Shown here in pieces: positions 11,518-46,699 of a stretch of 64,000 nucleotides of DNA (the first letter of the stretch is position 1; every line of letters begins with the position of its first letter). Source of the DNA: an uncultured Flavobacteriales bacterium (GTDB lineage: Bacteria > Bacteroidota > Bacteroidia > Flavobacteriales > UBA7312); the NCBI GenBank assembly GCA_913041085.1, contig CAJWHN010000001.1, positions 10,992-74,991 on the forward strand, read 5' to 3'. Below the pieces are notes generated by a model. The model searched no databases. It was not told the DNA's origin and worked only from the letters and a program-made list of their open reading frames with translations. Made by a program: the position numbers and the translations under genes.

Positions 11518-12909
11518 ATGTCTAAGTCGGTAATTTGTATAGTTTTATTCAGTGTCTTTATCACTTTTTTTGCTGAAGCTCAGCAGGATACAATTATTGA
11601 CAACAAACCTTATGCTATACATGTGGTACAGCCTAGAGAAACGCTGTACGGCATTTCGAGACAATACGATGCAGAGTTAAATGATTTGGTAATATCTAAT
11701 CCAGCAGTAATTCAAGGTTTGCATGTTGGCTTTAAATTATTAGTTCCTTTACGTCATACTATAGTAAGACCTGTTGATAATAACACAATATCACAGTCAA
11801 CAAAGTCTGTCACTTCGGATACTCTTTCCAAAAAAATCAAAAATGATTCGGATTTTCGGATTTCAACTCTTCCAAGCTATGAGCTAGATACTACAAAAAT
11901 TAAAGTGGCTTTATTGTTGCCGTTTTATTTGGATTTTAACGATTCTCTAAAAGTTAATAATAACAACAAGAATCTTATTTATCCCAAGTCCAAAGTAGCC
12001 TTAGATTTTTATTTTGGCTTTCAACTAGCTATTGATAGTTTAACTGAATTGGGATACAACATTGACTTGATGGTATTAGATGTGCCAAACGACTCTGTTT
12101 TTGAATCCATACTTACCTCTAACGTATTATATGATAGGGAATATATTTTTGGGCCAATTTATATTAGGCAGTTTGAAGAATTAGCCAAATTTTATGGGTA
12201 TGATACCGAAAAGAAACTCATTTCTCCTTTGTCTTATATGAGTGTAAAAAATAAGTATTTAAATATTTTTCAATCTGTTCCTTTGTCTTATGTTCAAATT
12301 GATGCTTTAATTGATTATCTTTTACATACCAATAATAGCGATGAATTAATATTACTTGGACAAGATAGAGAAGATGACCTTATTTCATATGCTAAAAAGA
12401 AATTGAGTTTGCAAATAATGAATAGGAGATGTCAAGTATTTACTTTTGATAAAAATCAATTGTCCGATAGGGATTTATTAAAAAGTAAATTAAAGTCTGA
12501 TAAAAATATTATGATTATCCCTTCCAATGACCGCTCGTTTGTGAGTAGGTTGCTACCTACTTTAGGAAGTATGGAGGATACCGTTTTTACCATTTATGGG
12601 CTTAATACATGGAATAGATTCGATAATTTAGATTATTATGATTTGGTGAATCTAAACGTTCATATGCCGTCAATCTTTATGAACGATAATAGTCAGTTTT
12701 ACTCAGATTTCGTTAATAATTATTACCAAAAGTATTTCTCTTATCCAGAAAAGTATGCTTATTCAGCTTATCAACAGTGTCTATACTTTTTATCTAGTGA
12801 ATTCAAAGGTCTTCTCGATTTCAAAACTTTTCCAAATACTTCTTTTCAGTCCAACACTAAATTCAACATTATTCGATTCGTCGATTTCGAGCGGCTTATA
12901 GTGCAATAG
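11518..12909 (+). CDS. LysM domain protein with periplasmic-binding-protein-like (LppC/PBP1) region
   Basis: Signal peptide ending AEA|Q; LysM motif HVVQPRETLYGISRQY; KVALLLPF...ALDFYFGFQLAIDSL; follows guaA as is common in Flavobacteria. Confidence 0.75.
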   Translation: MSKSVICIVLFSVFITFFAEAQQDTIIDNKPYAIHVVQPRETLYGISRQYDAELNDLVISNPAVIQGLHVGFKLLVPLRHTIVRPVDNNTISQSTKSVTSDTLSKKIKNDSDFRISTLPSYELDTTKIKVALLLPFYLDFNDSLKVNNNNKNLIYPKSKVALDFYFGFQLAIDSLTELGYNIDLMVLDVPNDSVFESILTSNVLYDREYIFGPIYIRQFEELAKFYGYDTEKKLISPLSYMSVKNKYLNIFQSVPLSYVQIDALIDYLLHTNNSDELILLGQDREDDLISYAKKKLSLQIMNRRCQVFTFDKNQLSDRDLLKSKLKSDKNIMIIPSNDRSFVSRLLPTLGSMEDTVFTIYGLNTWNRFDNLDYYDLVNLNVHMPSIFMNDNSQFYSDFVNNYYQKYFSYPEKYAYSAYQQCLYFLSSEFKGLLDFKTFPNTSFQSNTKFNIIRFVDFERLIVQ

Positions 12910-12984: not shown

Positions 12985-15900
12985 TTGAGGTATTTAATTT
13001 TAATTGCTTTATTTTTTAGTATTTCTTTTTCAAAGGCTCAAGTATTTACAGGAGCTGGTGGTAATATTCCTGATGCTACATTTTTTGGTCCATCTGCATG
13101 GACTAACTTTTATCTCAATGTAAATTCTATTGGTACAATTGATTGTGATTTAACGGTATGCATAAATATTTCACATAATTATACAGATGATTTAGATATT
13201 AGATTAGTTTCTCCATCTGGAACTATTGTTTATTTATCAACTGATAATGGAGGTTCAGGAAACAATTATGTAGGAACTTGTTTTACTATGGATGCTACTA
13301 CTAATATAACTGCAGGAATTGCACCATTTACTGGAGATTATTTACCTGAGGGTAATTTATCAGCTCTTAATGGTCAAAATGCAAACGGATTATGGCGCTT
13401 ACAAATACGAGATGATGCTTGGTTATTTTCAGGGTCACTAAACTCGTGGTCAATAGATTTTACTTGTGAAGCTGAATGTGAAGAAGGAGAAGAAGTTTAC
13501 ACTCTCAATTTATTTGATTCTTTTGGTGATGGTTGGGATCATGGTACAGGACATTTAGTAACTATTAATGGAGTAGATTATGGTGGATTTGATTTTACTA
13601 CAGGATACTCATTTTCTTATACGATTTGTTTAGATCCAACAGATTGTATAGATTTTTCATTTACAGACGGTGGTCCTTGGGAATATGAATGTTCTTACAG
13701 TCTTGTCAATAACACTGGCGTAACTATTTTTTCTGGAGATCACCAAACAATTGATCAAACTATTGGAGATTGTGCCGTTGCTGGCTGTACAGATTCTGAG
13801 GCTTGTAATTTTGACCCTGACGCTGAAGATGATGATGGTAGTTGTTTTTACTCACCTTTGACAGTCGATGATTGCGAGGTTGTATACTGCGGTTCTGAAG
13901 TAGGTGAACAAGTAGCTAGCCAATATATAGGTACTAATGTCAACTACCTTACAATTGAAATTACGGAAAGTGGTATTATTAATGAGTTGTTTTATGATAT
14001 CAACTGGCATAGTCATGGATGGGGTAATATAAATTTTAACGTAAATAATGCAACAATTGCACTATATGACAATTTTGGTACATTTGTTCAAAATATTGCA
14101 GTAATTGGAAATAATTTGAGTATTTCTACTTATCAGAACTTCACAAATATACTAAATACAAACATTGATGTGTATGCTGGATATTCAATTCAAGTATTTT
14201 TAAATAGTCCTAATTGGGGTGGTGGAACTTGGGAATCTTATGTTAATGAAGCTAATATTTCTTTTACTGTCATTACAGAATCAGTTGATGCAGGAAATGA
14301 TATTCAGGGATACTCACTTTGCTATGATGATCCTCCAATAAATTTATTTAATTTTTTAGGAAATAACGCTAATCAAAATGGTATTTGGTCGCCAACTCTT
14401 TCCGGAGGTTATCTTGGTACATTTGATCCACAAACTAATGAAAGTAATGATTACATCTATACTGTTACTGGCGAATGTTTGACAGATTTTGCTACTATCC
14501 CTATAACCGTAATAGATATAGCAGCTCCTCAAATTACTTCAAGCGAAGATTTTATTTGTTTTGGATCTTCTTCATTAGTTACTTATTCCGTTCCTGCTAA
14601 TCAAGGCTCAAATTATTCATGGTCTGTGAACGGAGGCAACATAGTAGGTTCTTCAACAACTAGTTCTATACAGGTTGATTGGTCAGCAACTCCAGTAAGT
14701 ACAATTTCAAACGCCGTAGTAATAACAGAAACTTTTAATGGCTGTAGTAACAGTTCTTCCATAGATGCTACTATTTGTGCTAACCCTATACCTGCATTAA
14801 GTATTGATAATACTGAAATTTGTTTGGGAGAGTCTATTACTGTAACAGTCAACCAAACTTATAACAATTATGTTTGGACTCCTGCCGAATTACTAAACTC
14901 CAATGTTTACACTCCAAACTCATCTTCAGATAATGAAATATCTGTTACTATTACTGGTGAAGAGGGGTGCTCAACAACCGAGTCTATTGACTTAACAATT
15001 TATGAGAGTCCAATAGTGAATCTCTCTGCTGAAGTTTCTGAAATATGCTTTACTGATTCATTGACGCTTACTTCAAACCCGGGCTATAACGATTATTCAT
15101 GGACACCAGCAACTATAACAGGAAACTCAGATGTCTATTATCCTTCTAATTCATCAGAAGATATGATTTTTCTTACTGTTACTGGAGAGGGTGGATGTAC
15201 AAGTTCTGATTCGCTTGAAATAGTTGTAAATGATTTACCTGTTGTCAACCTAACCATTGACAATTCAGAAATATGTTTAGGTGAATCCCTAATTGTTAAT
15301 ACTAATTCTGGGTATAACAATTACGATTGGACACCTTCAGCAATATCTTCAAATTCATACACCTATGTGCCTACTTCTTTGACAGACAATCAAATTTCTG
15401 TAATAGTTACCTCAGACTTTGGTTGTTCATCTACAGAAACTATTGATTTTACGATTTATGATTTGCCAAGTGTTAACCTATCAATTGATGATACGGATAT
15501 ATGTATCGGAGAGTCTTTAGTGGTGAGTGCTAATTCAGGCTATAACAATTACGTATGGACACCCTCAAGTATTTCTGGCTACACAGATGTCTATTTTCCA
15601 ACCTCATCATCTGAAGATATGATTTCTATAACTGTTACAGGAGAAGGTGGTTGTACAAGTTCTGATTCGTTAGCAATACAAGTTTTTGATTTACCTGTAG
15701 TAAACTTAGGTGTCGATAATTCAGAAATCTGTATTGGAGAAACAATAAGTTTAAACACTAACCCTGGTTACATAAATTATGACTGGTCGCCTTCAACTAT
15801 ATCCTCTAATTCCGATACGTATACCCCTACATCTTTAACAGATAATCAAATCTCAGTGACGATTACGGGAGATGGTGGCTGTATTTCATCAGATAATTTA

Positions 15901-17895
15901 AATTTAACGATTTATGATTTACCTATTGTAAATCTATCAATTGATGATAACTATCTGTGTATGGGTGATTCACTTGTGGTTAGTTCTAATTCGGGCTATG
16001 ACAACTACGCATGGACACCCTCAAGTATTTCAGGAAACACGGATGTCTATTTTCCAACTTCATCATCAATTGATATGATTTCTTTAACTGTAACAGGAGA
16101 TGGTGGTTGTACAACTTCTGATTCGTTAGCAATACAAGTTTTTGATTTACCTATTGTAAACTTAGATGTCGATAATTCAGAAATCTGTATTGGAGAAACA
16201 ATAAGCCTAAACACTAACTCAGGATATATTAACTACGACTGGTTGCCTTCAAGCATATCTTCTAATTCAGATACCTACACTCCCACATCTTTATTAGATA
16301 ATCAATTTTCAGTAACGATTACAGCGGATGGTGGTTGTACTTCTTCGGACTCTTTAGAGCTTACAATTTTTGATTTACCTATTGTTGAAGTTTCACTCTC
16401 TGAAAGTGTGATTTGTTTAGGTGAGTCTATAGCTGTTAATTCCACATCCGGATATGTGAATTACGATTGGACACCAGCTATTTTAAATTCTACAAATCAG
16501 ATAACACCTGAATTAACAGAAACTAATTATTTGGTAGAAGTAACGGATATAAACGGTTGTAAATCTACTGATGATGCCAACCTTGTAATTAATCAGTCAA
16601 CACCAATTGAATTAACAGTTAATGGAAATAACACTACTACAATATGTATTGGAGAAGAAATAGACTTAGTTGCTTCTTTAGGTTTTGATTCATATACATG
16701 GTCAATTCCTAATGTATTATCCAACCAAACTACTTATGTGCCTTCTGACCTAAGTGATAATCAATTCTCAGTAATAGGTACTAACCAATTTGGCTGTAAT
16801 TCAACGTCTGCCTTGAATATTACTATCAACAGTATTCCAACACCAAGTTTAATATCGGTATTTTCTGATAGTGCACAGACAATCCCTCAAAGTATAAACC
16901 TTTGTGCAGGTGTTTCAGATATTAAATTTTCATCTAATATTAGTAGTCCTACTAATCCTGTAGAATGGGTTTTTGTTGATGGTAATGGCGCCATAATAGA
17001 AAATGGTCAAAATACTTCAGAATTGGCAGTTTCATTTCCTATTGTTGAAGATTATATTTTAGAATTCAGAGAGTATGGTTCTCAAAATTGCTTTACTCCT
17101 CAACAAATTGAAATAAAAGTAAATCCTAACCCTGTTCTTGACGTTAGCTATGTTGAAGATTGTTACAAGGACTCTGTATTTTTTACTAATAACTCAAGTG
17201 TTGATACAACGATTCAGAGCGTCTTATGGTCAGTAGATGGCTATAGTTTTAATAGTTACAACTTATCCTATCCACTAGATAATGACAGTAAAGTTTTTGA
17301 GCTTAGCATTGTTGATGTATTAAATTGTTCTTCTTCATTATCCACAAACTTTGTTCCTTCAGATCGTCCTTATGTTGATTTTTATCATGAGCCAGAGAAG
17401 ATTACAATTTTAAACCCTGAGGTTTCTTTCATAAACCTATCTTCGAATGACGATACTATTTTGTGGGATTTTGGTGATAATCAAACTTCAGATGAATGGG
17501 AACCAATTCATACATACGATTCGTTGGGTTGGTTTGAAGTTATTTTGAAAGTTCAAAATAATGAAGGTTGTGCTGATTCTATTGCTAAACAATTACTAGT
17601 TGAAAATAACCTCATATATTATTTCCCAAGTTCATTTACACCAGATGGTGATGGATTAAATGACGAATTTGGAGTGAGTGGATTTAGAATTGATAAAATT
17701 CAAAATTACCAATTCCAAATTACCAACAGATGGGGTGAAATTGTCTTTTATTCTGAGGATGTTAACGCAAAATGGGATGGTAAAACATCTCAAGGTAATG
17801 ACGCTATGCCTGGTAGTTACCTTTGGTCAGTTCGTGTAGTTGATGAACTAGGAAAGGTGACTAGAAAATTTGGAGATTTCACTTTGTTGAGGTAG
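12985..17895 (+). CDS. Large T9SS type-B (CHU_C/gliding-motility CTD) surface protein, adhesin-like (gene A): P-domain, DSxGDGW domain, GCTD repeat, about 9 Ig/PKD-like repeats, PKD, CTD
   Basis: TTG start; signal peptide SKA|Q; proprotein-convertase P-like domain (HNYTDDLDIRLVSPSGT...NGLWRLQIRD); C-terminal FPSSFTPDGDGLNDEF...NRWGEIVF...WDG...GDFTLLR. Confidence 0.88.
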   Translation: MRYLILIALFFSISFSKAQVFTGAGGNIPDATFFGPSAWTNFYLNVNSIGTIDCDLTVCINISHNYTDDLDIRLVSPSGTIVYLSTDNGGSGNNYVGTCFTMDATTNITAGIAPFTGDYLPEGNLSALNGQNANGLWRLQIRDDAWLFSGSLNSWSIDFTCEAECEEGEEVYTLNLFDSFGDGWDHGTGHLVTINGVDYGGFDFTTGYSFSYTICLDPTDCIDFSFTDGGPWEYECSYSLVNNTGVTIFSGDHQTIDQTIGDCAVAGCTDSEACNFDPDAEDDDGSCFYSPLTVDDCEVVYCGSEVGEQVASQYIGTNVNYLTIEITESGIINELFYDINWHSHGWGNINFNVNNATIALYDNFGTFVQNIAVIGNNLSISTYQNFTNILNTNIDVYAGYSIQVFLNSPNWGGGTWESYVNEANISFTVITESVDAGNDIQGYSLCYDDPPINLFNFLGNNANQNGIWSPTLSGGYLGTFDPQTNESNDYIYTVTGECLTDFATIPITVIDIAAPQITSSEDFICFGSSSLVTYSVPANQGSNYSWSVNGGNIVGSSTTSSIQVDWSATPVSTISNAVVITETFNGCSNSSSIDATICANPIPALSIDNTEICLGESITVTVNQTYNNYVWTPAELLNSNVYTPNSSSDNEISVTITGEEGCSTTESIDLTIYESPIVNLSAEVSEICFTDSLTLTSNPGYNDYSWTPATITGNSDVYYPSNSSEDMIFLTVTGEGGCTSSDSLEIVVNDLPVVNLTIDNSEICLGESLIVNTNSGYNNYDWTPSAISSNSYTYVPTSLTDNQISVIVTSDFGCSSTETIDFTIYDLPSVNLSIDDTDICIGESLVVSANSGYNNYVWTPSSISGYTDVYFPTSSSEDMISITVTGEGGCTSSDSLAIQVFDLPVVNLGVDNSEICIGETISLNTNPGYINYDWSPSTISSNSDTYTPTSLTDNQISVTITGDGGCISSDNLNLTIYDLPIVNLSIDDNYLCMGDSLVVSSNSGYDNYAWTPSSISGNTDVYFPTSSSIDMISLTVTGDGGCTTSDSLAIQVFDLPIVNLDVDNSEICIGETISLNTNSGYINYDWLPSSISSNSDTYTPTSLLDNQFSVTITADGGCTSSDSLELTIFDLPIVEVSLSESVICLGESIAVNSTSGYVNYDWTPAILNSTNQITPELTETNYLVEVTDINGCKSTDDANLVINQSTPIELTVNGNNTTTICIGEEIDLVASLGFDSYTWSIPNVLSNQTTYVPSDLSDNQFSVIGTNQFGCNSTSALNITINSIPTPSLISVFSDSAQTIPQSINLCAGVSDIKFSSNISSPTNPVEWVFVDGNGAIIENGQNTSELAVSFPIVEDYILEFREYGSQNCFTPQQIEIKVNPNPVLDVSYVEDCYKDSVFFTNNSSVDTTIQSVLWSVDGYSFNSYNLSYPLDNDSKVFELSIVDVLNCSSSLSTNFVPSDRPYVDFYHEPEKITILNPEVSFINLSSNDDTILWDFGDNQTSDEWEPIHTYDSLGWFEVILKVQNNEGCADSIAKQLLVENNLIYYFPSSFTPDGDGLNDEFGVSGFRIDKIQNYQFQITNRWGEIVFYSEDVNAKWDGKTSQGNDAMPGSYLWSVRVVDELGKVTRKFGDFTLLR
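15010..16377 (+). repeat. Intragenic tandem repeat: 6 x 228 nt (76 aa), alternating types giving 3 x 456 nt
   Basis: Units start at Pro codons 15010, 15238, 15466, 15694, 15922 and 16150, with the next domain at 16378; the string tctgattcgttagcaatacaagtttttgatttacct recurs at 15661 and 16117 (456 nt apart). Confidence 0.95.
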
Positions 17896-17988: not shown

Positions 17989-19293
17989 TTGAGATATTTA
18001 TTTGCCATATCTATTCTTTGCTTACACATACATTCTTATGCTCAATGTGTGGTAGATGAATCTTATTCTTTAAATCCTGAGGGCCCCTATCAAATTGGTG
18101 ATGTTGTTACTGTGAATTATACTTTGAATAGTTTCTATCAATTAAATACCAATTGGGTTATAGCTTTTCAAATTAATTTAGGTAATGGGTGGACTAATCT
18201 AAATCCAACATCTGCACCAATAAATACCAATATTAACAATGCTTTAGGTAACGGGTATTGGATTTGGGATTTAGAAAATACTTTTCCTAGTGGATTAGAA
18301 TTTGGACCAGGATTTAGATTTATAAACACTAGTTGGGATGACTATTGGTGGCTTCAAGGAAGTCCAAATTGGGGATCGTCTTCAACAGGACCATTATCAT
18401 TTTCCTTTGATGTTACAGTTAATGAATCTTGTACACCTGAGGATCTTTATATTAGTATAAATGTATATGGAGATTGTCAAACTGGTGGTTGGAATAACGG
18501 AGATTGTTGTAGCGATACAGCTCTAGTAAACTATGATGATTCACTTTTTGTTTATTCAAATTTAAATTCAGGATTAGATACTTCGGTGATTTATTGCCAA
18601 GAATCTGGTAACTTCAACCTATTCGATTTATTAGGTGATAATGTGCAAAACGATGGCTTTTGGACTCCGTCACTCGCTCAAGGTTATTTAGGTCAATTTA
18701 ATCCATCGATTAATACGCCACAAGAGTATATTTATACTGTATCGGATGAATGTAATACGGACTCAACTAGCGTTTTCTTAAGTTTAGATAACACAGAAAG
18801 TCAACCAACAGTTGAATTACAATTGTGTGATAACGATACAATTGTAAGTTTATACAACGCTCTAAATCTGAATAATACTTCAGGTATATGGCAAGGAACT
18901 TCTAGTTTAAGTTCTGGCTATCAAGGCTTTTTTAACCCTCAAGAACAACAGATAGGTTTATACACTTATACTGTCTTAAATGAGAATGATTGCCAACAAA
19001 GTTACCCATTGGATGTTTCAATAATTGAAGAAAATATTAATGCTGGAAGCGATTATGAGCTTGAAATATGTATTGATGATCCTGGTGTTAACTTTTATGA
19101 ATTAATCGGTAATCCAGATATAAATGGTATATGGTCACCTTCTTTGAACTCAGGCTATTTTGGTTTTTTTGATCCGTCAGCAAACCTTTCAGGAGATTAT
19201 ACGTACACCCTTTCAGGGGAATGTGATACGTACCAATCTCAAGTTAATGTAAATGTCATTGAAGTTATACCACCACCAATTGTTACGAACTAA
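17989..19293 (+). CDS. Secreted protein (gene B): unique Trp/Gly-rich N-terminal domain plus 3 Ig-like repeats (GxW.P.L..GY.G.F.P); no T9SS CTD
   Basis: TTG start MRYLF (gene A starts MRYLI); signal peptide SYA|Q; third repeat aligns with gene A GIWSPTLSGGYLGTFDP; ends VIEVIPPPIVTN. Confidence 0.82.
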   Translation: MRYLFAISILCLHIHSYAQCVVDESYSLNPEGPYQIGDVVTVNYTLNSFYQLNTNWVIAFQINLGNGWTNLNPTSAPINTNINNALGNGYWIWDLENTFPSGLEFGPGFRFINTSWDDYWWLQGSPNWGSSSTGPLSFSFDVTVNESCTPEDLYISINVYGDCQTGGWNNGDCCSDTALVNYDDSLFVYSNLNSGLDTSVIYCQESGNFNLFDLLGDNVQNDGFWTPSLAQGYLGQFNPSINTPQEYIYTVSDECNTDSTSVFLSLDNTESQPTVELQLCDNDTIVSLYNALNLNNTSGIWQGTSSLSSGYQGFFNPQEQQIGLYTYTVLNENDCQQSYPLDVSIIEENINAGSDYELEICIDDPGVNFYELIGNPDINGIWSPSLNSGYFGFFDPSANLSGDYTYTLSGECDTYQSQVNVNVIEVIPPPIVTN

Positions 19294-19325: not shown

Positions 19326-20357
19326 ATGAAAAATTGTATAAATATTCTATTAACTGCTTTTATATCATTAACGGTTTCAATGGCTACTTATGCTCAAATT
19401 GACACCTTATGCCTTGGTTCTACTCTAGAAAATTATTCTATTATACCTAACGCAGGTTCTACCTACTCTTGGAGTGTTTCAGGAGGTGGAATCATAATAG
19501 GCTCTAATACTGGTACTTCTATTCAAGTAGATTGGTCTAATGCGCCTTTAGGCTTAATAAATAATGCTATTACATTGACCGAACAACTTAACGGTTGTGA
19601 AGCTGATCAGACTTTAAGTGTAGAAATTTTAGAAAACCCTACACCTAATTTATCTGCTTCAGATTTGTCCATTTGTTTAGGTGAATCAGTATTGTTATCT
19701 GCTGATGCTGGTTATGATACATACAATTGGACTCCTTCATCACTATCTGGTGCTTCATCTACATACACTCCAAATGCTATTACTGATGATACTTTTGAGG
19801 TTGAGGTCATTGGTGAAGGAGGCTGTTCTACAACAGAGAGTATTGAAATAGAAATTTTTGAACTTCCATCAGTTGAGGTTTCACTTTCTGATAGTACCAT
19901 TTGTTTAGGAGAGTCTATCACAGTTAGTGCAACCTCAGGCTTTACTACTTATACTTGGACTAATTCATCACTTTCTAGTGATCAAACTACTTTAACGCCT
20001 ACTTTGGTCGACACTGAATATAGCGTAAGCATTACCGATGTTAATGGCTGTGAAGCGTCAGATGATGTTACTCTAACAATTAATGAAATTAACCCTATTG
20101 AGCTATTAGTTAATGGGGCTGAAACCACTACTATCTGTTTAGGGGAAACTATCTCTCTTGATGCTACTGATGGATTTAGTTCGTATGTATGGGTTCCTGC
20201 TGTGGTAATTGGTGATAATGGTAACTATGTTCCTCAAAATACTTCTGAAACATCATACACAGTGACATCAACTGATTCAGAGGGTTGTCAATCTGTTGAT
20301 ACTATTAACATTACTATCAATAATTTACCTAATCCAGGCCCAATTATTTTTAACTAA
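19326..20357 (+). CDS. Secreted protein (gene C): 4 PKD/Ig-like domains paralogous to the stalk of gene A; no T9SS CTD
   Basis: Signal peptide TYA|Q; YSWSVSGGGIIIGS...SIQVDWS matches A YSWSVNGGNIVGS...SIQVDWS; ICLGES repeats; ends NITINNLPNPGPIIFN. Confidence 0.85.
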   Translation: MKNCINILLTAFISLTVSMATYAQIDTLCLGSTLENYSIIPNAGSTYSWSVSGGGIIIGSNTGTSIQVDWSNAPLGLINNAITLTEQLNGCEADQTLSVEILENPTPNLSASDLSICLGESVLLSADAGYDTYNWTPSSLSGASSTYTPNAITDDTFEVEVIGEGGCSTTESIEIEIFELPSVEVSLSDSTICLGESITVSATSGFTTYTWTNSSLSSDQTTLTPTLVDTEYSVSITDVNGCEASDDVTLTINEINPIELLVNGAETTTICLGETISLDATDGFSSYVWVPAVVIGDNGNYVPQNTSETSYTVTSTDSEGCQSVDTINITINNLPNPGPIIFN

Positions 20358-20362
20358 TCAGA

Positions 20363-21424
20363 ATGCATAGAGTACTTATACTTTTCTTTTTAAAGTTAAG
20401 TGTTCTAGGATATTGTCAAAATCTTCAAATCTGTCTTAGCGATAGCCTAGAATACTTTTCTGTTGTACCGAGCTCATCAACAAATTCGCTTGAATGGGAG
20501 TTTGTTTATGGAGATGGTGCAGAAATTGTCGATGGGCAATTTTCGGATAGTATAAGTGTTCTTTTTTCCAACCCTGGAGATTATATTTTACAATTGCGAG
20601 AGTTCGGCTCAACCAATTGTTTTACATCAGTAGAAATGAATATTTCGGTAAACCCTAATCCTTTAGCTAGTTTTTTTAGTGATGAGATTTGTATTTACGA
20701 TTCTGTTAAATTTATCAATACTTCTATTTCTAGTGATGGTTTACAATCTTCTATTTGGCGTATTGGTGATGATATAATCGATGCTATTGATTTGAATTAT
20801 ACCTTTAATGAGGAAGGCGAGTACCTTATAGAATTGTCTGTTGTCAGTAATTTAGGATGTTCTGATATGGAGTCTTTGTTCTTTAAGCTTTCTGATAAAC
20901 CAATTGCTGATTTTTATCATTTTCCTGAGAAAATCACTACGCTAAACCCTATAGTTGAATTTGTGAATTTATCAACAGAGGGTTTTGTTAATTGGGATTT
21001 TGGTGATGACTTTTACTCTAATGAATGGCAACCAATTCATTATTTTGATTTAGCAGCTTGGTACGATGTGCAATTGACCTTAGAAGATGAAAACGGTTGC
21101 ACAGACTCTATTACGAAGAGTTTATTAGTTGAAAGTGAGCTTATTTTTTACTTGCCTACATCTTTTACCCCAGATGGAGATGGCATAAACGATGATTTTG
21201 GCATAAAAGGATTCAATATCGATAGGGTGCAAGAGTTTTCTATGGTTATAACTAATAGATGGGGCGAAATTATATTTAATGTAGATGATATTAATCAAAG
21301 GTGGAATGGCGAGAACCAAGTTGGAAATTTAGCAATGCCAGGCACTTATTTATGGTCTGTTCGTATTAAAGATGAATTAGGTAAGCAGACTAGGCAAATA
21401 GGAGAAGTTACTCTGTTGAGGTAA
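20363..21424 (+). CDS. T9SS type-B CTD protein with PKD domains (gene D), paralog of the C-terminal roughly 350 aa of gene A
   Basis: Signal peptide GYC|Q; WDFGDD PKD motif; LPTSFTPDGDGINDDFG...NRWGEIIF...GEVTLLR. Confidence 0.88.
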   Translation: MHRVLILFFLKLSVLGYCQNLQICLSDSLEYFSVVPSSSTNSLEWEFVYGDGAEIVDGQFSDSISVLFSNPGDYILQLREFGSTNCFTSVEMNISVNPNPLASFFSDEICIYDSVKFINTSISSDGLQSSIWRIGDDIIDAIDLNYTFNEEGEYLIELSVVSNLGCSDMESLFFKLSDKPIADFYHFPEKITTLNPIVEFVNLSTEGFVNWDFGDDFYSNEWQPIHYFDLAAWYDVQLTLEDENGCTDSITKSLLVESELIFYLPTSFTPDGDGINDDFGIKGFNIDRVQEFSMVITNRWGEIIFNVDDINQRWNGENQVGNLAMPGTYLWSVRIKDELGKQTRQIGEVTLLR

Positions 21425-22042
21425 TTATCTTAAATCAATAACATCTACATTAGGGTAGTCAGCAGTTTTAAACAAAAAAAAATTGTTATTCATTTCTTTA
21501 TTTGTTACAAATGAATCAATAACGTATTTAAAGTGGCTACCTTGTTTGTCAATCATAGTAAATGAGCTGATTTGCATCTTAGATTTGTTTATGAATAACT
21601 CCACTTTTGTAAAAGGACCACTTTCTTCAGGAAATAAATCGATGTGGTAGTTTTTACCATCTTCTCTCACAAATTTATACTTGTATCCATTTTCATAAAT
21701 AGTAAAAATTTTAGATGGGTTTAATTCATTTTCTTCATCATCAATTTCTGTAATATTTACTTCTTCTTCATCTGGAAGGTAAATCCAATTTGTTTCTCCA
21801 TCGCAAATGATTGTTTGCGCTTCCATTTCTAGCCTATATGCATCGTCTTTAAGATATAGTGTTCCACTTTGCGACTCATTAATATCTGTTACCGTACTAG
21901 AAAAGGTATTAGTAAATTTTGCCTCTATTGAGGTGTATGATTTGGTCTTATCACTTAGTTGGTCTAAAATAGTTTTGGCTTTTTGGTCTTGTGCAAAGAT
22001 TACACAAGGAAAGAGAAATAGGAAATAAATTAGCTTTTTCAT
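21425..22042 (-). CDS. lolA: Outer-membrane lipoprotein carrier LolA family protein
   Basis: Signal peptide IFA|Q; GTLYLKDDAYRL, DGETNWIYLPDEEEVNI, NPSKIFTIY; immediately downstream of ftsK. Confidence 0.85.
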   Translation of the reverse strand: MKKLIYFLFLFPCVIFAQDQKAKTILDQLSDKTKSYTSIEAKFTNTFSSTVTDINESQSGTLYLKDDAYRLEMEAQTIICDGETNWIYLPDEEEVNITEIDDEENELNPSKIFTIYENGYKYKFVREDGKNYHIDLFPEESGPFTKVELFINKSKMQISSFTMIDKQGSHFKYVIDSFVTNKEMNNNFFLFKTADYPNVDVIDLR

Positions 22043-31786: not shown

Positions 31787-33673
31787 ATGAAAAACCTCCT
31801 TATTCTTTTATTATTTACCCCTTTTGTGCTATTATCACAGAATACCCCAAAAGCCAAAAAAGCCTATGCCAAAGCTGTAGAGTTTTATCAAGAGAGTAAC
31901 GATAAAAAAGCCAAAGAATTGGTTCAGTCGGCTATACGACAAGATGCCAACTATTTACCTTCCTATTTGCTGTTGGGTCAGCTCGAGGAAGAAGGTGGTA
32001 ATATAGAATCGGCAATTGATAATTACTTAAAAGGTATTTCAGATAATAATCCCGATAATGCTTGGGGTTATTGGAAAGTAGGCATGTTATACATGCAAAT
32101 ACCAAACTATGTAGAAGCTCAACGAGCGTTCAATCATTTTTTAAGCTTTAAATATCAAAAATCAAAAAAAATAGAGTCTGCCAGAAAAGAACTCAAAAAT
32201 TGCGAATTTTCTATTGATGCTATAGCTAACCCTAAGCCTTTTGACTTTAAGAATATGGGCGATGGTATCAATAGTGAATGGGAAGAGTATTTACCTAGTG
32301 TTTCTGCCGATGGCAAGTTATTCGTTATTACTAGGAGAGGTCCACATCAAAACAATGTTGTTTCAGAAGATTTTTATCAGAGTGAATATCTAAACGGTAA
32401 GTGGACAAAAGCTCAAAATATGGGGGCATCGGTCAATACAATGGGTAATGAAGGAGCTCAGTGTTTAGCACCTAATGGAAAGCTTTTGTTTTTTACTGCT
32501 TGTGACCGTGACGATGGCTTAGGTCGTTGTGATATATATATCAGTATAAAGAGAAATGGACAATGGTCAGAAGCTAGAAATATAGGACCTACTATCAACA
32601 GTAAATATTGGGAATCACAGCCTACCATTTCACCTGATGGTAGAGAACTTTATTTTGTGAGCAACAGACCAGGAGGCTATGGCGATATGGATATATGGAA
32701 AAGTGTACTTTCTGAGCAAGGCACCTTTTCTACACCTGTCAATTTGGGGTCTACTATCAACACCCCATACGATGAAATGTCACCCTTTATACATACCGAT
32801 AACCATACCTTATATTTTGCCTCTAATGGACACCCCGGTTTAGGCGATTTTGATTTGTTTTTAAGTCGTAGAGATTATCCTGTCGCTAGTTGGCAAAACC
32901 CCATTAACTTAGGTTATCCTATCAATACACTAGGTGTAGAGAATAGTCTTATTGTAGCTTCAGACGGCAAAACAGCATACTTCGCATCTGATAAATCGGG
33001 TTACGGTCAAGAAGACATTTTCTGGTTTCATCTACCTCAAGAAATGCAATCTCAACAAGTAGCTTATCTCAATACTAAGGTTTATGATGCCGAAACCAAA
33101 ACACCTATGAAATCAAGTATTGAAATCATTGACTTAGCTACTGGCAAAGTGATGATATCGTCATTTACATATACCAAGACGGGAGAATTTTTTACTTGCT
33201 TACCAGCCAACACCAATTATGCCGTTAATGTTTCTAAAGACGGTTATTTGTTTCATTCGGAAAATTTTGTCTTAAATGAGCAAAGTGCATTACAAGCACT
33301 GAAGTTAGATATACCATTGCAACGACTCAATAAAGGAAGTAAGATTGTATTGAATAATATTTTCTTTGATACCGATGCTTACACGCTAAAAACCGAATCT
33401 GAGGTAGAACTCAATACCTTAGTTAATTTTATGAATAATAATGCGAGTCTTGAAGTAGAGATAGAAGGACACACCGATAATGTAGGTTCAGAATCGCATA
33501 ACCTTAAACTTTCAGAAAGCAGAGCCAAAGCCGTTTATGATTTTCTAGTAGAAAATGGCATAAGTGCCAACAGAATGACTTTCAAAGGCTTTGGAGCAAG
33601 TCAGCCCATTGCTACTAACGAAACAGACGAGGGTAGAGCTACCAACAGAAGAACGGCTTTTAGGGTGAAGTGA
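31787..33673 (+). CDS. OmpA-family protein with TPR, PD40/WD40 propeller and carboxypeptidase-regulatory-like domains (PorE-like architecture)
   Basis: Signal peptide LLS|Q; PD40 repeats (ESQPTISPDGRELYFVSNR); OmpA-C motifs IEGHTDNVG...LSESRA...NRR. Confidence 0.88.
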   Translation: MKNLLILLLFTPFVLLSQNTPKAKKAYAKAVEFYQESNDKKAKELVQSAIRQDANYLPSYLLLGQLEEEGGNIESAIDNYLKGISDNNPDNAWGYWKVGMLYMQIPNYVEAQRAFNHFLSFKYQKSKKIESARKELKNCEFSIDAIANPKPFDFKNMGDGINSEWEEYLPSVSADGKLFVITRRGPHQNNVVSEDFYQSEYLNGKWTKAQNMGASVNTMGNEGAQCLAPNGKLLFFTACDRDDGLGRCDIYISIKRNGQWSEARNIGPTINSKYWESQPTISPDGRELYFVSNRPGGYGDMDIWKSVLSEQGTFSTPVNLGSTINTPYDEMSPFIHTDNHTLYFASNGHPGLGDFDLFLSRRDYPVASWQNPINLGYPINTLGVENSLIVASDGKTAYFASDKSGYGQEDIFWFHLPQEMQSQQVAYLNTKVYDAETKTPMKSSIEIIDLATGKVMISSFTYTKTGEFFTCLPANTNYAVNVSKDGYLFHSENFVLNEQSALQALKLDIPLQRLNKGSKIVLNNIFFDTDAYTLKTESEVELNTLVNFMNNNASLEVEIEGHTDNVGSESHNLKLSESRAKAVYDFLVENGISANRMTFKGFGASQPIATNETDEGRATNRRTAFRVK

Positions 33674-45593: not shown

Positions 45594-46691
45594 ATGAAAA
45601 AATATTTTATGTCTGTAGTCTTTAGTATGGGTTTATTTTGGGCGTATGGACAGCAAGAAGCTGATAGTACACTTACAAGCGAAGAAATCCAATTTAGAGA
45701 TTCTATAGCGGCTATCAATACCAATAACGTTTTAATTCAAGAGATACAAGAATCATATAACGCTGGTGCAGAGGATTTTGCGTCATCTAACTTTAAGGAA
45801 GCTATTACGTCTTTTGAATCTGTTATTGTTTTGGATTCTGCTAATGCAGACGCTTACTTTAATAAAGGTTTATCCCACAAGGAGTTAAAGAATTATGAAG
45901 TAGCTATTTCTGATTTTGAAAGTGCCTTTAGCATAGACGACAGCTATTTTGATGCCATTTTTAATATTGCCAAGTGTTACGAATTATTGAATAATAAGGA
46001 ACTAGCCCTAAGCACTTATGATCGTTTATTGTCCATAGATCCTAGTCGAGCTGAGGCGGCATACAACCAAGGTGTATTGTATTATTTACAAAAGGATTAC
46101 GATAATGCTATCAAAGCCTATTCTAAGGCCATAAAGATAGACCCTTATTATGCCTATGCGCTAAACGATAGGGGCAGTTGTTTTCGAGCATTAGAAGACT
46201 ATGACAAGGCCATAGCCGATTATTTAGAAGCTAGTAAGAATGATCCCCAAGCTTTTATTTTTAACAATTTAGCAAGTGCTTATCGAAAAGCAGGGGATAA
46301 AGACCAAGCCATTGATTTTTACACCAAAGCCATACAGTCCGATGCCAATTATGAAATGGCATACAACAACAGAGGCACGGTCTATTTTGAATCCGAGAAC
46401 TACGATATGGCACTCAAAGACTTTAAGAAAGCGATAGAGATAAATTCCGATTATGCTATGGCATTATGCAACAGAGCTGCCATCTATCACTTGCAAGAAC
46501 ACTATACTGGCGCTTTGGCTGATTTGGAACAAGCGGTTAAGCTACAGCCCAAAAATGTCACAGCTCTACTCAATAGAGGTATTACAAGAGAAATGCTAAG
46601 AGATGTTGAAGGGGCTTGTCAAGACTGGCAAAAAGCCTATCAATTGGGTATGGAAAAAGCCAATGAATATTACATTAACAATTGCGAATAA
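45594..46691 (+). CDS. Secreted multi-TPR protein
   Basis: Signal peptide AYG|Q; about 8 TPR repeats (AYFNKG, AAYNQG, ALNDRG, AYNNRG, ALLNRG). Confidence 0.85.
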   Translation: MKKYFMSVVFSMGLFWAYGQQEADSTLTSEEIQFRDSIAAINTNNVLIQEIQESYNAGAEDFASSNFKEAITSFESVIVLDSANADAYFNKGLSHKELKNYEVAISDFESAFSIDDSYFDAIFNIAKCYELLNNKELALSTYDRLLSIDPSRAEAAYNQGVLYYLQKDYDNAIKAYSKAIKIDPYYAYALNDRGSCFRALEDYDKAIADYLEASKNDPQAFIFNNLASAYRKAGDKDQAIDFYTKAIQSDANYEMAYNNRGTVYFESENYDMALKDFKKAIEINSDYAMALCNRAAIYHLQEHYTGALADLEQAVKLQPKNVTALLNRGITREMLRDVEGACQDWQKAYQLGMEKANEYYINNCE

Positions 46692-46699
46692 ATAGAGAT

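What the first reader, a model, noticed from the sequence alone, without database searches (positions are those of the whole stretch)
20307..20450. Junction 2: C's tail PNPGPIIFN and D's truncated first domain repeat the same pattern
Seen: A reads NITINSIPTPSLISVF-SDSAQTIP-QSINLCAG (about 16816-16910). C ends NITINNLPNPGPIIFN-stop and mature D begins QNLQICLSD. Both CTD-less subunits end in a Pro-rich, Ile-containing tail terminating in Asn (PPPIVTN, PNPGPIIFN). Two independent breaks at the same structural position argue against random gene fission. Inference: an ordered B-C-D chain. If the C tail also fits C's own groove, C could homopolymerise as an extender.
Basis: partly seen in the sequence, partly recalled or inferred. 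Interest (0 to 1): 0.75.

Follow-up and report, generated by a model that had tools for sequence, protein, structure and literature searches.

The report
Split three-gene T9SS surface fibre
Three adjacent genes in an uncultured marine flavobacterium encode the tip, stalk and anchor of what is normally a single long surface adhesin; the two pieces that lack the export domain end in a short, very conserved tail matching the missing first strand of the next piece, so the pieces probably click together head to tail before export, though this was not shown.

Summary
C (19326-20357) ends NITINNLPNPGPIIFN-stop. Five bases later D (20363-21424) starts with a signal peptide, then QNLQICLSD. A reads straight through the equivalent place (16816-16911).

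These are not decayed gene fragments. The B-C-D trio sits at the same locus (guaA, LysM gene, B, C, D, lolA, ftsK) in at least five divergent marine Flavobacteriales lineages. Each gene has its own signal peptide followed by Gln. dN/dS is 0.10-0.19.

The C tail is the most conserved 12-residue stretch of C, about 93% column identity against 72% overall. Only its codons vary. Both breaks fall at the same position of a PKD_6-type domain, just after its P-x-P-x-P-x-I-[TS]-G opening segment. The middle subunit's internal repeats differ between lineages, but its truncated first domain and its tail are kept.

Best reading: D, with a type-B CTD, is the anchor and export handle, C is the stalk and B is the tip.

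A is probably a secondary re-fusion. I found no published precedent.

The parts
12985..17895 (+). Gene A: 1636-aa single-chain paralogue with signal peptide, P-domain, B-like region, PKD_6 domain, about 10 Ig_7 repeats, a D-like PKD region and a type-B CTD. Found only in the window's clade.
   Evidence: Absent in clade 2, L012, L013 and L015. Its D-like part nests among split D genes.
16816..16911 (+). A's uninterrupted counterpart of junction 2: NITINS-IPTPSLISVF (tail homologue), then SDSAQTIP (extra 8 residues, possibly a remnant of a signal-peptide end), then QSINLCAG.
   Evidence: coordinates. NSIPTPSLIS scores 5.6 bits; this segment has pLDDT below 50 in the A model.
17989..19293 (+). 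Gene B: 434-aa tip subunit with a signal peptide (…HSYA|Q), a conserved Cys-rich head domain with no Pfam match, and repeats. No CTD.
   Evidence: The head domain occurs fused to type-A or type-B CTDs in other organisms.
19270..19290 (+). B tail PPPIVTN, the proposed donor segment for C's first domain.
   Evidence: 5.8 bits, 4th of 2730 10-mers. Its conservation is only average for B.
19326..20357 (+). Gene C: 343-aa stalk subunit with a signal peptide (19326-19394), a truncated PKD_6 domain, three Ig_7 domains and the tail. No CTD.
   Evidence: AF2 mean pLDDT 92.4. Homologous to GhpA repeats.
19395..19640 (+). C's first domain (PKD_6). The mature chain starts QIDTLC at profile position 13, so it lacks the opening P.P.P.I.[TS]G segment.
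20325..20354 (+). C tail LPNPGPIIFN, the proposed donor segment for D's first domain and the core of the finding.
   Evidence: most conserved window; synonymous changes only; top-scoring 10-mer; no secondary structure, pLDDT 77 in the monomer.
20358..20362 (+). 5-nt C-D spacer. D is in the +2 frame relative to C, and D's frame is closed by a stop only 3 codons upstream of its ATG.
   Evidence: and direct reading of the sequence. The equivalent gaps in other loci are -1 to 10 nt.
20363..21424 (+). Gene D: 353-aa anchor subunit with a signal peptide (20363-20416), a truncated PKD_6-like first domain, two PKD domains and a type-B CTD.
20417..20665 (+). D's first domain. The predicted mature N-terminus QNLQICLSD starts at PKD_6 profile position 12. 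Adding the C tail extends the match to position 6.
   Evidence: 16.5 to 18.2 bits, both below the Pfam cut-off of 25; the equivalent domain of A is modelled with pLDDT above 90.
21152..21421 (+). D's type-B T9SS sorting domain (CHU_C / TIGR04131), the only export signal in the B-C-D set.

Best explanation
B, C and D are three separately translated and separately Sec-exported subunits of one T9SS surface fibre or adhesin. In relatives such as gene A, GhpA or SprB the equivalent protein is a single polypeptide.

Proposed roles:
- D carries the only type-B CTD, so it is the export handle and cell-surface anchor.
- C is a stalk of Ig-like domains whose length and composition vary between lineages.
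- B carries a conserved Cys-rich head domain and is the distal tip.

Proposed assembly:
- Signal peptidase I would leave C and D with a first PKD_6-type domain that lacks its opening P-x-P-x-P-x-I-[TS]-G segment (linker plus strand A).
- That segment sits as a free C-terminal tail on the preceding subunit (B: PPPIVTN; C: PNPGPIIFN).
- The tail is proposed to dock in trans onto the next subunit's first domain in the periplasm, by beta-strand complementation.
- This would give an ordered B-C-D chain that the T9SS exports through D's CTD, with B and C as hitchhikers.

Shown: the gene structure, its conservation, purifying selection, the homology of the tails to the PKD_6 opening segment, and the absence of a CTD in B and C.

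Inferred: signal-peptide cleavage, docking, the order of the chain, and co-export.
For: 1. The trio is conserved at one syntenic locus in at least five lineages. C is 48-99% identical and D is down to about 31% identical. Every C and D gene has a signal peptide plus Gln, and C-to-D gaps are -1 to 10 nt.
2. dN/dS is 0.10-0.19 for all three genes. The tail's codons vary while its residues do not.
3. The C tail is the most conserved window in C.
4. The consensus of 1041 intact PKD_6 boundaries is N-P-x-P-x-P-x-I(74%)-[TS]-G(86%)-x3-V-C. Both tails match it in register and both breaks fall just after the G position. The C tail is the top-scoring 10-mer of 2730, while Ig_7-to-Ig_7 linkers score -4.4 to 1.6.
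5. The Pfam PKD_6 match starts at profile position 12-13 in mature C and D. It extends to position 6-9 when the upstream tail is prepended.
6. The internal repeats of the middle subunit are entirely different in L012, L013 and L015, but its truncated first domain and its G-[PA]-I-x-x-[NW] tail are retained.
7. In the high-confidence monomer model of C the tail is unstructured and not packed on its own chain, so it is available for a partner.
8. B's head domain occurs fused to type-A or type-B CTDs in other organisms, so it acts outside the cell, yet B here has no CTD.
9. The T9SS moves folded proteins and very long Ig-repeat fibres (PMC9251779; GhpA, bioRxiv 10.1101/2024.01.29.577165). C is homologous to GhpA repeats.
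10. No terminator-like sites lie between the genes.
Against: - There is no direct test of binding.
- In the AF2 model of A's fused junction the tail-equivalent IPTPSLISVF has pLDDT below 50 and no strand. The D-like first domain is modelled confidently (above 90) as a seven-strand sandwich starting at SINLC, so it may fold without that segment. The alignment was poor for this part, so the result is weak either way.
- D's first domain is not more conserved than the rest of D (0.65 against 0.68), and the B tail is only averagely conserved (0.75 against 0.74).
- The donated strand is short, about 3 residues in the equivalent cis domains of the C model.
- P-rich linkers also follow PKD_6 domains that precede Ig_7 domains, so tail type does not point only downstream.
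- Tails of the most distant lineages match the PKD_6 matrix only weakly.
- No PorP/SprF gene lies next to D, and T9SS hitchhiking has no precedent that I could find.
Confidence: 0.55

Rival explanations
1. B, C and D are real but independent proteins. The conserved tail would serve another purpose, such as a C-terminal recognition tag for a periplasmic chaperone, protease or unknown export factor, or a cap that stabilises the last Ig domain. There would be no B-C-D chain.
For: - The tail is unstructured in the monomer model.
- D's first domain models as a complete sandwich without the tail-equivalent segment.
- D's first domain is not specially conserved.
- P-rich linkers are not exclusive to boundaries that precede a PKD_6 domain.
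Against: - The tail is homologous, in register, to the opening segment of the very domain type that begins the next gene product, at both junctions and in every lineage.
- Strict adjacency and gene order are kept while the middle subunit's repeats are replaced.
- B's head domain is otherwise attached to CTDs, so a CTD-less B needs some route out.
Confidence: 0.22
2. C also polymerises with itself: the C tail enters the first domain of another C. This would give fibres of variable length, B-(C)n-D, as in pilus shafts.
For: C and D both start with a truncated PKD_6-type domain, and both tails fit the same consensus.
Against: - B-type and C-type tails have stayed distinct across lineages (G-[PA]-I only in C tails), as have the N-termini of C and D.
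- AF2 did not fold the C tail back onto C's own first domain. The geometry of a monomer would make that difficult in any case.
Confidence: 0.1
3. B, C and D are decaying fragments of a duplicated A-like gene (a pseudogene), or the breaks are sequencing or assembly errors, or a fused protein is made by frameshifting or readthrough.
For: B-C-D is collinear with A. Repeat-rich genes often break in assemblies: A is interrupted by a 100-N gap in L003, and B is in two ORFs in L015.
Against: - The same breaks appear in dozens of independent assemblies and at least five lineages.
- dN/dS is 0.10-0.19.
- Each piece has its own start codon and a signal peptide followed by an invariant Gln.
- An 18-residue hydrophobic signal peptide would sit in the middle of any fused product.
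- D's frame is closed 3 codons upstream of its ATG.
Confidence: 0.03

Closest known systems
Single-chain T9SS type-B CTD Ig-repeat fibres: GhpA grappling hook of Aureispira (PDB 9flp and others), SprB of Flavobacterium johnsoniae
   Same: - Sec signal peptide, long string of Ig-like repeats, C-terminal type-B sorting domain, distal binding module.
- C matches GhpA repeats with E 3.6e-72.
- GhpA fragments are the best Foldseek matches to the model of A residues 1200-1480.
   Different: - Those are one polypeptide of 5898-6497 aa. Here the protein is encoded as three genes, each with its own signal peptide, and only the last has the CTD.
- ghpA and sprB have PorP/SprF-type genes next to them. 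D has none and is an 'orphan' type-B substrate in the sense of PMC12618676.
- Nothing is known about oligomerisation here.
Type V pili of Bacteroidia (FimA/Mfa1): protease-mediated strand exchange
   Same: Logic only, from established knowledge of the family. A C-terminal strand of one subunit fills the place of a missing N-terminal strand in the next, giving ordered tip-shaft-anchor fibres in a Bacteroidota periplasm or outer membrane.
   Different: - No sequence relationship: no FimA or Mfa Pfam hits.
- Type V pilins are lipoproteins whose N-terminal strand is removed by gingipain-type proteolysis.
- Here the precursors have type-I signal peptides followed by Gln and no lipobox. The truncated domain would be produced directly by signal peptidase I.
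- Export would be through the T9SS rather than lipoprotein sorting.
Chaperone-usher pili: donor-strand complementation and exchange
   Same: An incomplete Ig-like fold in one subunit is completed by a short extension of the neighbouring subunit. Tip, shaft and anchor are encoded in one operon.
   Different: - The missing strand there is the C-terminal G strand and the donor is an N-terminal extension.
- That system requires a periplasmic chaperone and an outer-membrane usher. Neither lies beside B, C and D; about a quarter of the window's ORFs were annotated here, the rest only listed.
- Here the polarity is reversed, with a C-terminal donor and a missing N-terminal strand.
Hitchhiker (piggyback) export of signal-less partners, e.g. 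Tat hitchhiking of hydrogenase subunits
   Same: A folded complex would be exported through a signal carried by only one subunit (reviewed in PMC9251779).
   Different: It concerns a different membrane and machine. Four full-text searches found no such report for the T9SS.

Membership tests
T9SS type-B CTD cargo (TIGR04131 / PF13585 CHU_C) | C-terminal type-B sorting domain scoring above the curated cut-off | tested here: met
   D: TIGR04131 41.3 bits (cut-off 35) and PF13585 56.8 bits (cut-off 27). A: 37.4 and 52.1 bits. This holds for D and A only.
T9SS type-B CTD cargo (TIGR04131 / PF13585 CHU_C) | The same feature, tested for B and C | tested here: not met
   B and C have no CTD hit of type A or type B at E<=0.01 in Pfam or NCBIfam. 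They end in short tails instead.
T9SS type-B CTD cargo (TIGR04131 / PF13585 CHU_C) | N-terminal Sec signal peptide | tested here: inconclusive
   All four start with a basic n-region and a hydrophobic core, then [ASC]|Q. The Gln is invariant in the C and D alignments and fits the Bacteroidetes Q-rule (PMC5837995). No dedicated predictor or N-terminal sequencing was available.
T9SS type-B CTD cargo (TIGR04131 / PF13585 CHU_C) | Cognate PorP/SprF-like shuttle gene directly downstream (common but not obligatory; PMC12618676) | tested here: not met
   The gene downstream of D is a convergent lolA (NF053572, 196 bits), followed by ftsK. D would be an 'orphan' type-B substrate.
PKD_6 domain (PF19408) | Match above Pfam's gathering score | tested here: met
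   Full-length C: 37.3 bits against a cut-off of 25. C's first domain alone: 27.7 bits, or 28.8 bits with the B tail prepended.
PKD_6 domain (PF19408) | The same feature, tested for D's first domain | tested here: not met
   16.5 bits alone and 18.2 bits with the C tail, both below 25. It is PKD_6-like, not a certified member. Orthologues P0114, P0115 and P0121 carry a precomputed PF19408 hit.
PKD_6 domain (PF19408) | Complete domain including the opening segment (profile positions 1-11, P.P.P.I.[TS]G) | tested here: not met
   Mature C starts at profile position 13 and mature D at position 12. A's cis domain starts at position 5. The segment is conserved in 1041 cis boundaries.
Donor-strand complementation fibres (chaperone-usher pili) | Dedicated periplasmic chaperone and outer-membrane usher genes in the locus | tested here: not met
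   The flanking genes are guaA, a LysM gene, lolA, ftsK and other housekeeping genes. A-D give no chaperone or usher family hit.
Donor-strand complementation fibres (chaperone-usher pili) | An incomplete Ig fold completed by a strand from the neighbouring subunit | not testable with these tools
Only sequence-level evidence for a missing opening segment is available.
Type V pilins (FimA/Mfa1) | Lipoprotein precursor (lipobox Cys) and FimA/Mfa-type fold | tested here: not met
   There are no FimA or Mfa Pfam hits. Cleavage sites are [ASC]|Q with no lipobox. The Cys of B shifts relative to the cleavage site between orthologues.
Pseudogene or gene fragments | Relaxed selection, loss of start or signal sequences, breaks restricted to one lineage | tested here: not met
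   dN/dS is 0.10-0.19. Breaks and signal peptides are conserved in at least five lineages.

The most novel reading that the evidence does not exclude
The B-C-D locus would be the first example of a heteromeric T9SS cargo. A surface fibre would be assembled in the periplasm from separately exported subunits by trans-complementation of a PKD-like domain split exactly at a signal-peptidase site. Two CTD-less subunits would hitchhike on the CTD of the third. The middle 'cartridge' would be freely exchangeable in evolution, because only its first domain and its tail need to be kept.
Probability: 0.45. Interest if true: 0.85.

Novelty: new variant of a known kind. Interest (0 to 1): 0.68.

Why it matters
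Current descriptions of the T9SS say that every cargo carries its own C-terminal sorting domain. A conserved system in which only one of three subunits has a CTD would show that the T9SS can export pre-assembled complexes. It would also define a short, portable docking pair: a roughly 10-residue tail and a truncated PKD-like domain.

The arrangement also explains how streamlined marine flavobacteria could vary the reach and the binding head of an adhesin by swapping one small gene rather than remodelling a giant one. These bacteria are abundant in Tara and other ocean metagenomes, and the locus sits among core housekeeping genes. The fibre is therefore likely to matter for particle or phytoplankton attachment.

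The tail-domain pair could also be useful as a protein-assembly tag if the binding turns out to be tight.

Tried and rejected
1. Complex modelling.
2. AF2 of A residues 1200-1480 as a natural fused proxy. The part upstream of SINLC, including a whole Ig_7 domain, came out with pLDDT below 50. The likely cause is that signal peptides of D orthologues and misaligned C rows filled those columns. It is uninformative for the tail question.
3. AF2 of mature C. The model is good, but it shows only that the tail is free.
4. phmmer of C's first domain against 1.84 billion representatives, intended as a census of 'acceptor-first' proteins. The list was swamped by giant proteins with 10-40 tandem PKD_6 repeats. 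It was useless as a census but supplied the 1041 cis boundaries used.
5. Search for internal (fused) occurrences of GPI..N in the 245 retrieved proteins. There were none.
6. Programmed frameshift or readthrough. Rejected from the frames and the stops.
7. C-terminal Asx as a site of enzymatic ligation or isopeptide formation. Considered and set aside. A free C-terminal residue offers no leaving group, and one C tail ends in Trp. Not tested.
8. Mutual-information analysis of cis arrays, to assign the opening segment to the upstream or the downstream domain. Not run, because block duplications of the repeats would confound it.
9. Promoter and terminator scan. Counts are at shuffle level. It shows only that no terminator-like site lies between the genes.
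Full report
**1. What is in the sequence**

Four same-strand genes lie between a LysM-type gene (11518-12909) and a convergent lolA (21425-22042):
- A: 12985-17895, 1636 aa
- B: 17989-19293, 434 aa
- C: 19326-20357, 343 aa
- D: 20363-21424, 353 aa

The gaps are 93 nt (A-B), 32 nt (B-C) and 5 nt (C-D). No terminator-like site lies between the genes.

A and D end in a type-B T9SS sorting domain (TIGR04131 and PF13585, above the curated cut-offs). B and C have no CTD of any type.

B, C and D are collinear with A. B matches A179-520 at 26%, C matches A991-1290 at 41% and D19-353 matches A1302-1636 at 49%.

The quoted strings sit at the quoted coordinates:
- C tail NITINNLPNPGPIIFN: 20307-20354, then TAA
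- D ATG: 20363
- QNLQICLSD: 20417-20443
- A's continuous version: 16816-16911

**2. These are genes, not wreckage**

C orthologues of 339-350 aa occur in many independent metagenome assemblies, down to 48% identity. All have a signal peptide and all end ...ITIN[ND][ILVM]P[NSTD]PGPI[IN][FY]N, with one extra Asn in P0042.

Contig look-ups show the same neighbourhood in every case: guaA, LysM gene, the split genes, lolA, ftsK, enoyl-CoA hydratase, and so on. The lineages are:
- The window's clade has A+B+C+D.
- A second clade, with C about 52% identical, has B (596-604 aa)+C+D and no A.
- Three deeper lineages (L012, L013/14, L015) have B-like, C-like and D-like genes whose tails and N-termini follow the same rule.

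| Lineage | B tail | C N-terminus | C tail | D N-terminus |
|---|---|---|---|---|
| L012 | ...PLITTQPISHN | Q-TSTSPTQLVC | ...TPSTGPIFHN | Q-NVVHLC |
| L013/14 | ...PTTNTPPINHN | Q-TNTSPTQTVC | ...SPITGPIIHW | Q-NTVHIC |
| L015 | ...NLSPIINLN | not tabulated | ...TPEPGAITN | Q-DVIVC |

The genome scan places these loci in uncultured marine Flavobacteriales and Cryomorphaceae MAGs.

Pairwise dN/dS is 0.10-0.19 for B, C and D. In the tail the codons differ (CCT/CCG/CCC, GGC/GGT/GGA, ATT/ATA, AAC/AAT) while the residues do not. Selection therefore acts on the peptide, not on an RNA or DNA element.

D's reading frame is closed three codons upstream of its ATG, and a hydrophobic signal peptide lies between C's end and D's first domain. 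A frameshifted fusion product is therefore not credible.

The residue after each predicted cleavage site is an invariant Gln. This is the Bacteroidetes 'Q-rule' for signal peptidase I substrates (PMC5837995, PMC10653852).

**3. What the tails are**

I collected 1041 intact boundaries in front of PKD_6 domains from 148 giant tandem-repeat homologues. The consensus before the conserved Cys is V-x-I-N-P-x-P-x-P-x-I(74%)-[TS]-G(86%)-x-x-x-V-C.

Both junctions fit this in register:
- C tail and D: P-N-P-G-P-I-I-F-N | Q-N-L-Q-I-C
- B tail and C: P-P-P-I-V-T-N | Q-I-D-T-L-C

Both breaks fall immediately after the position of the conserved Gly. The Gln needed by the signal peptidase site is one extra residue.

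A position matrix built from these segments gave the following:
- The C tail is the best of all 2730 10-mers in A-D (8.3 bits) and the B tail is 4th (5.8 bits).
- Ordinary Ig_7-to-Ig_7 linkers score -4.4 to 1.6.
- Linkers that follow a PKD_6 domain and precede an Ig_7 domain also score high (5.7-6.8).
- The tails of the deepest lineages score only -6 to -1.7.

The last two points are caveats.

Pfam agrees. The PKD_6 match begins at profile position 12-13 in mature D and C, and extends to position 6-9 with 1-2 extra bits when the upstream tail is prepended. In A's fused junction 1 it starts at position 5. D's first domain stays below Pfam's cut-off, so I call it PKD_6-like.

**4. Conservation pattern**

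Across 20 C orthologues, the six lowest-entropy 12-residue windows of the mature protein all lie in residues 327-343, and the five most conserved lie in the last 16 residues. Column identity there is 0.93-0.94, against 0.72 overall and 0.64-0.73 for the equivalent cis linkers inside C.

The B tail is conserved only at the average level for B (0.75 against 0.74). D's first domain is no more conserved than the rest of D. These two results do not fit a tight co-conserved interface very well, and I count them against the docking model.

**5. Modularity**

The interior of the middle subunit is replaced wholesale between lineages:
- three Ig_7 domains in the window
- four LDDATF.LTDYCAG-type repeats in L012
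- C.DY.WNGQ.YT.SG.YTF repeats in L013
- a single domain in L015 (206 aa)
- other lengths in L040, L048 and L049

What never changes is the signal peptide, the truncated PKD_6 first domain and the G-[PA]-I-x-x-[NW] tail.

B-type tails lack the Gly and stay distinct from C-type tails in every lineage. That suggests junction specificity and argues weakly against C-C polymerisation.

**6. Why B and C need D**

B's Cys-rich head domain is the best conserved part of B (PSGLEFGPGFRF, YGDCQTGGWNNG). In other organisms it is found fused to a type-A CTD (P0202) or a type-B CTD (P0222). Elsewhere it appears in many CTD-less proteins that end P-I-x-H-N. The head therefore acts at or beyond the cell surface.

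C is homologous to the Ig repeats of GhpA, the T9SS-exported grappling-hook fibre of Aureispira (E 3.6e-72). GhpA fragments are also the best Foldseek matches to the model of A residues 1200-1480 (bioRxiv 10.1101/2024.01.29.577165).

The T9SS exports folded proteins and very long fibres (PMC9251779). Only D has a sorting domain, so the simplest route for B and C is to leave attached to D.

D has no PorP/SprF gene next to it, so it would be an 'orphan' type-B substrate like those described in F. johnsoniae (PMC12618676). Two PorE-like OmpA genes lie elsewhere in the window.

**7. Structure prediction**

The model of mature C is confident (pLDDT 92.4):
- Its first domain starts with a strand at IDTLC.
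- Each internal Ig_7 domain has a short A strand (about 3 residues in the second and third, e.g. VSL and LLV) 6-10 residues before the I-C motif.
- That is the same spacing as I-I-F of the tail to D's I-C.
- The tail itself (residues 310-320) has no secondary structure and pLDDT 77, so it is free.

The model of A1200-1480 is confident only from SINLC onward (above 90). There it shows a seven-strand sandwich. The tail-equivalent IPTPSLISVF has pLDDT below 50. Because the whole upstream Ig_7 domain was also poorly modelled, I read this as an alignment problem. It still gives no support for docking, and it leaves open that D's first domain folds on its own.

**8. Where A comes from**

In a neighbour-joining tree of the D-like region, A's C-terminal third is sister to the D genes of the window's clade plus L015. 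It lies inside the radiation of split D genes (clade 2, L012 and L013 branch outside). A is absent from all the deeper lineages.

A is therefore more likely a duplicated and re-fused copy than the ancestral template.

At A's junction 2, eight extra residues (SDSAQTIP) separate the tail homologue from QSINLC. The S-A-Q resembles the end of a signal peptide. This would fit an in-frame deletion that removed the stop codon and the hydrophobic core. It is a low-confidence inference, and the tree has no support values.

**9.

A metagenome scan for DNA encoding PGPI[IF][FHY]N-stop gave 51 hits:
- 34 are chance matches in ORFs shorter than 100 aa.
- 17 end an ORF of 100 aa or more.
- 15 of those 17 are followed within -1 to 10 nt by a gene with a signal peptide, Q..C and a type-B CTD motif.

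The association holds, but these 15 are homologues of C and D, so it is one ancient invention, not convergence.

**10. Literature**

Four full-text searches found no description of split T9SS cargo, of strand complementation among T9SS substrates or of T9SS hitchhiking. The nearest mechanistic parallels are type V pili and chaperone-usher pili. Neither membership test is met (see the table).

**11. Verdict**

- High confidence: a conserved, selected, three-subunit split of a T9SS Ig-repeat surface protein, with breaks at one precise position of a PKD_6-type domain.
- Moderate confidence (about 0.55): head-to-tail assembly through the tails, and co-export on D's CTD.
- The C-C extender idea is unsupported.
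- I rate it a new variant of known kinds (T9SS fibres, strand-complemented pili) and of clear interest to T9SS and marine-microbiology specialists.

Noticed in passing
window 12985-17895 (A); junction at 16816-16911: A occurs only in the window's clade, and its D-like third nests among split D genes. It looks like a duplicated, re-fused B-C-D copy. The extra SDSAQTIP at its junction 2 may be the remnant of a signal-peptide end.
   Followed up: partly
window 18046-18560 (B residues about 20-190): B's Cys-rich head domain (PSGLEFGPGFRF, YGDCQTGGWNNGDCC) has no Pfam or NCBIfam match, yet it is the best conserved part of B. It is widespread in marine Flavobacteriales, joined to SprB repeats and GEVED domains, and ends either in a CTD (type A or B) or in a P-I-x-H-N tail. 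Its ligand is unknown.
   Followed up: partly
L012 10020-11330; L013 555-1898; L015 8363-8983; L040, L048, L049: The middle (C-type) subunit has unrelated internal repeats and lengths of 206-447 aa or more in different lineages. It behaves like an exchangeable cartridge between a fixed first domain and a fixed tail.
   Followed up: partly
L015 5189-6826 and 6838-8331: In this lineage the B-type gene is in two ORFs (545 and 497 aa). The second has no signal peptide, and the break lies inside a repeat. It could be an assembly error, a frameshift or a pseudogene.
   Followed up: no
L003 3944-8543: The A orthologue is interrupted by a 100-N scaffold gap inside the repeat region. This shows how poorly these repeat genes assemble.
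   Followed up: no
window 31787-33673 and 46682-48748: Two OmpA-family genes are related to PorE / CHU_0125 (293 and 186 bits to T9SS_PorE, below the 600-bit cut-off). They are possible T9SS or outer-membrane anchoring components.
   Followed up: no
window 11518-12909: A 463-aa secreted protein with a LysM-like N-terminus and no NCBIfam hit lies directly upstream of the A/B genes in every lineage examined. This may be plain synteny or a functional link to the fibre.
   Followed up: no
window 21424/21425: D's stop codon and the stop codon of the convergent lolA1 gene are directly adjacent, with a 0-nt gap. No terminator-like hairpin lies between them.
   Followed up: no
L008, L009, L001 (B tails); L013 (C tail): The last residue is not always Asn. 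Clade-2 B tails end in Asp (PPPILTD, PPSIISD) and one C tail ends in Trp (PIIHW). Tails with His (..FHN, ..IHW) go with D N-termini that contain His (VHLC, VHIC).
   Followed up: no
window 12985 (A) and 17989 (B): Both A and B are called with TTG start codons. Both begin MRYL..., so their signal peptides look related to each other.
   Followed up: no
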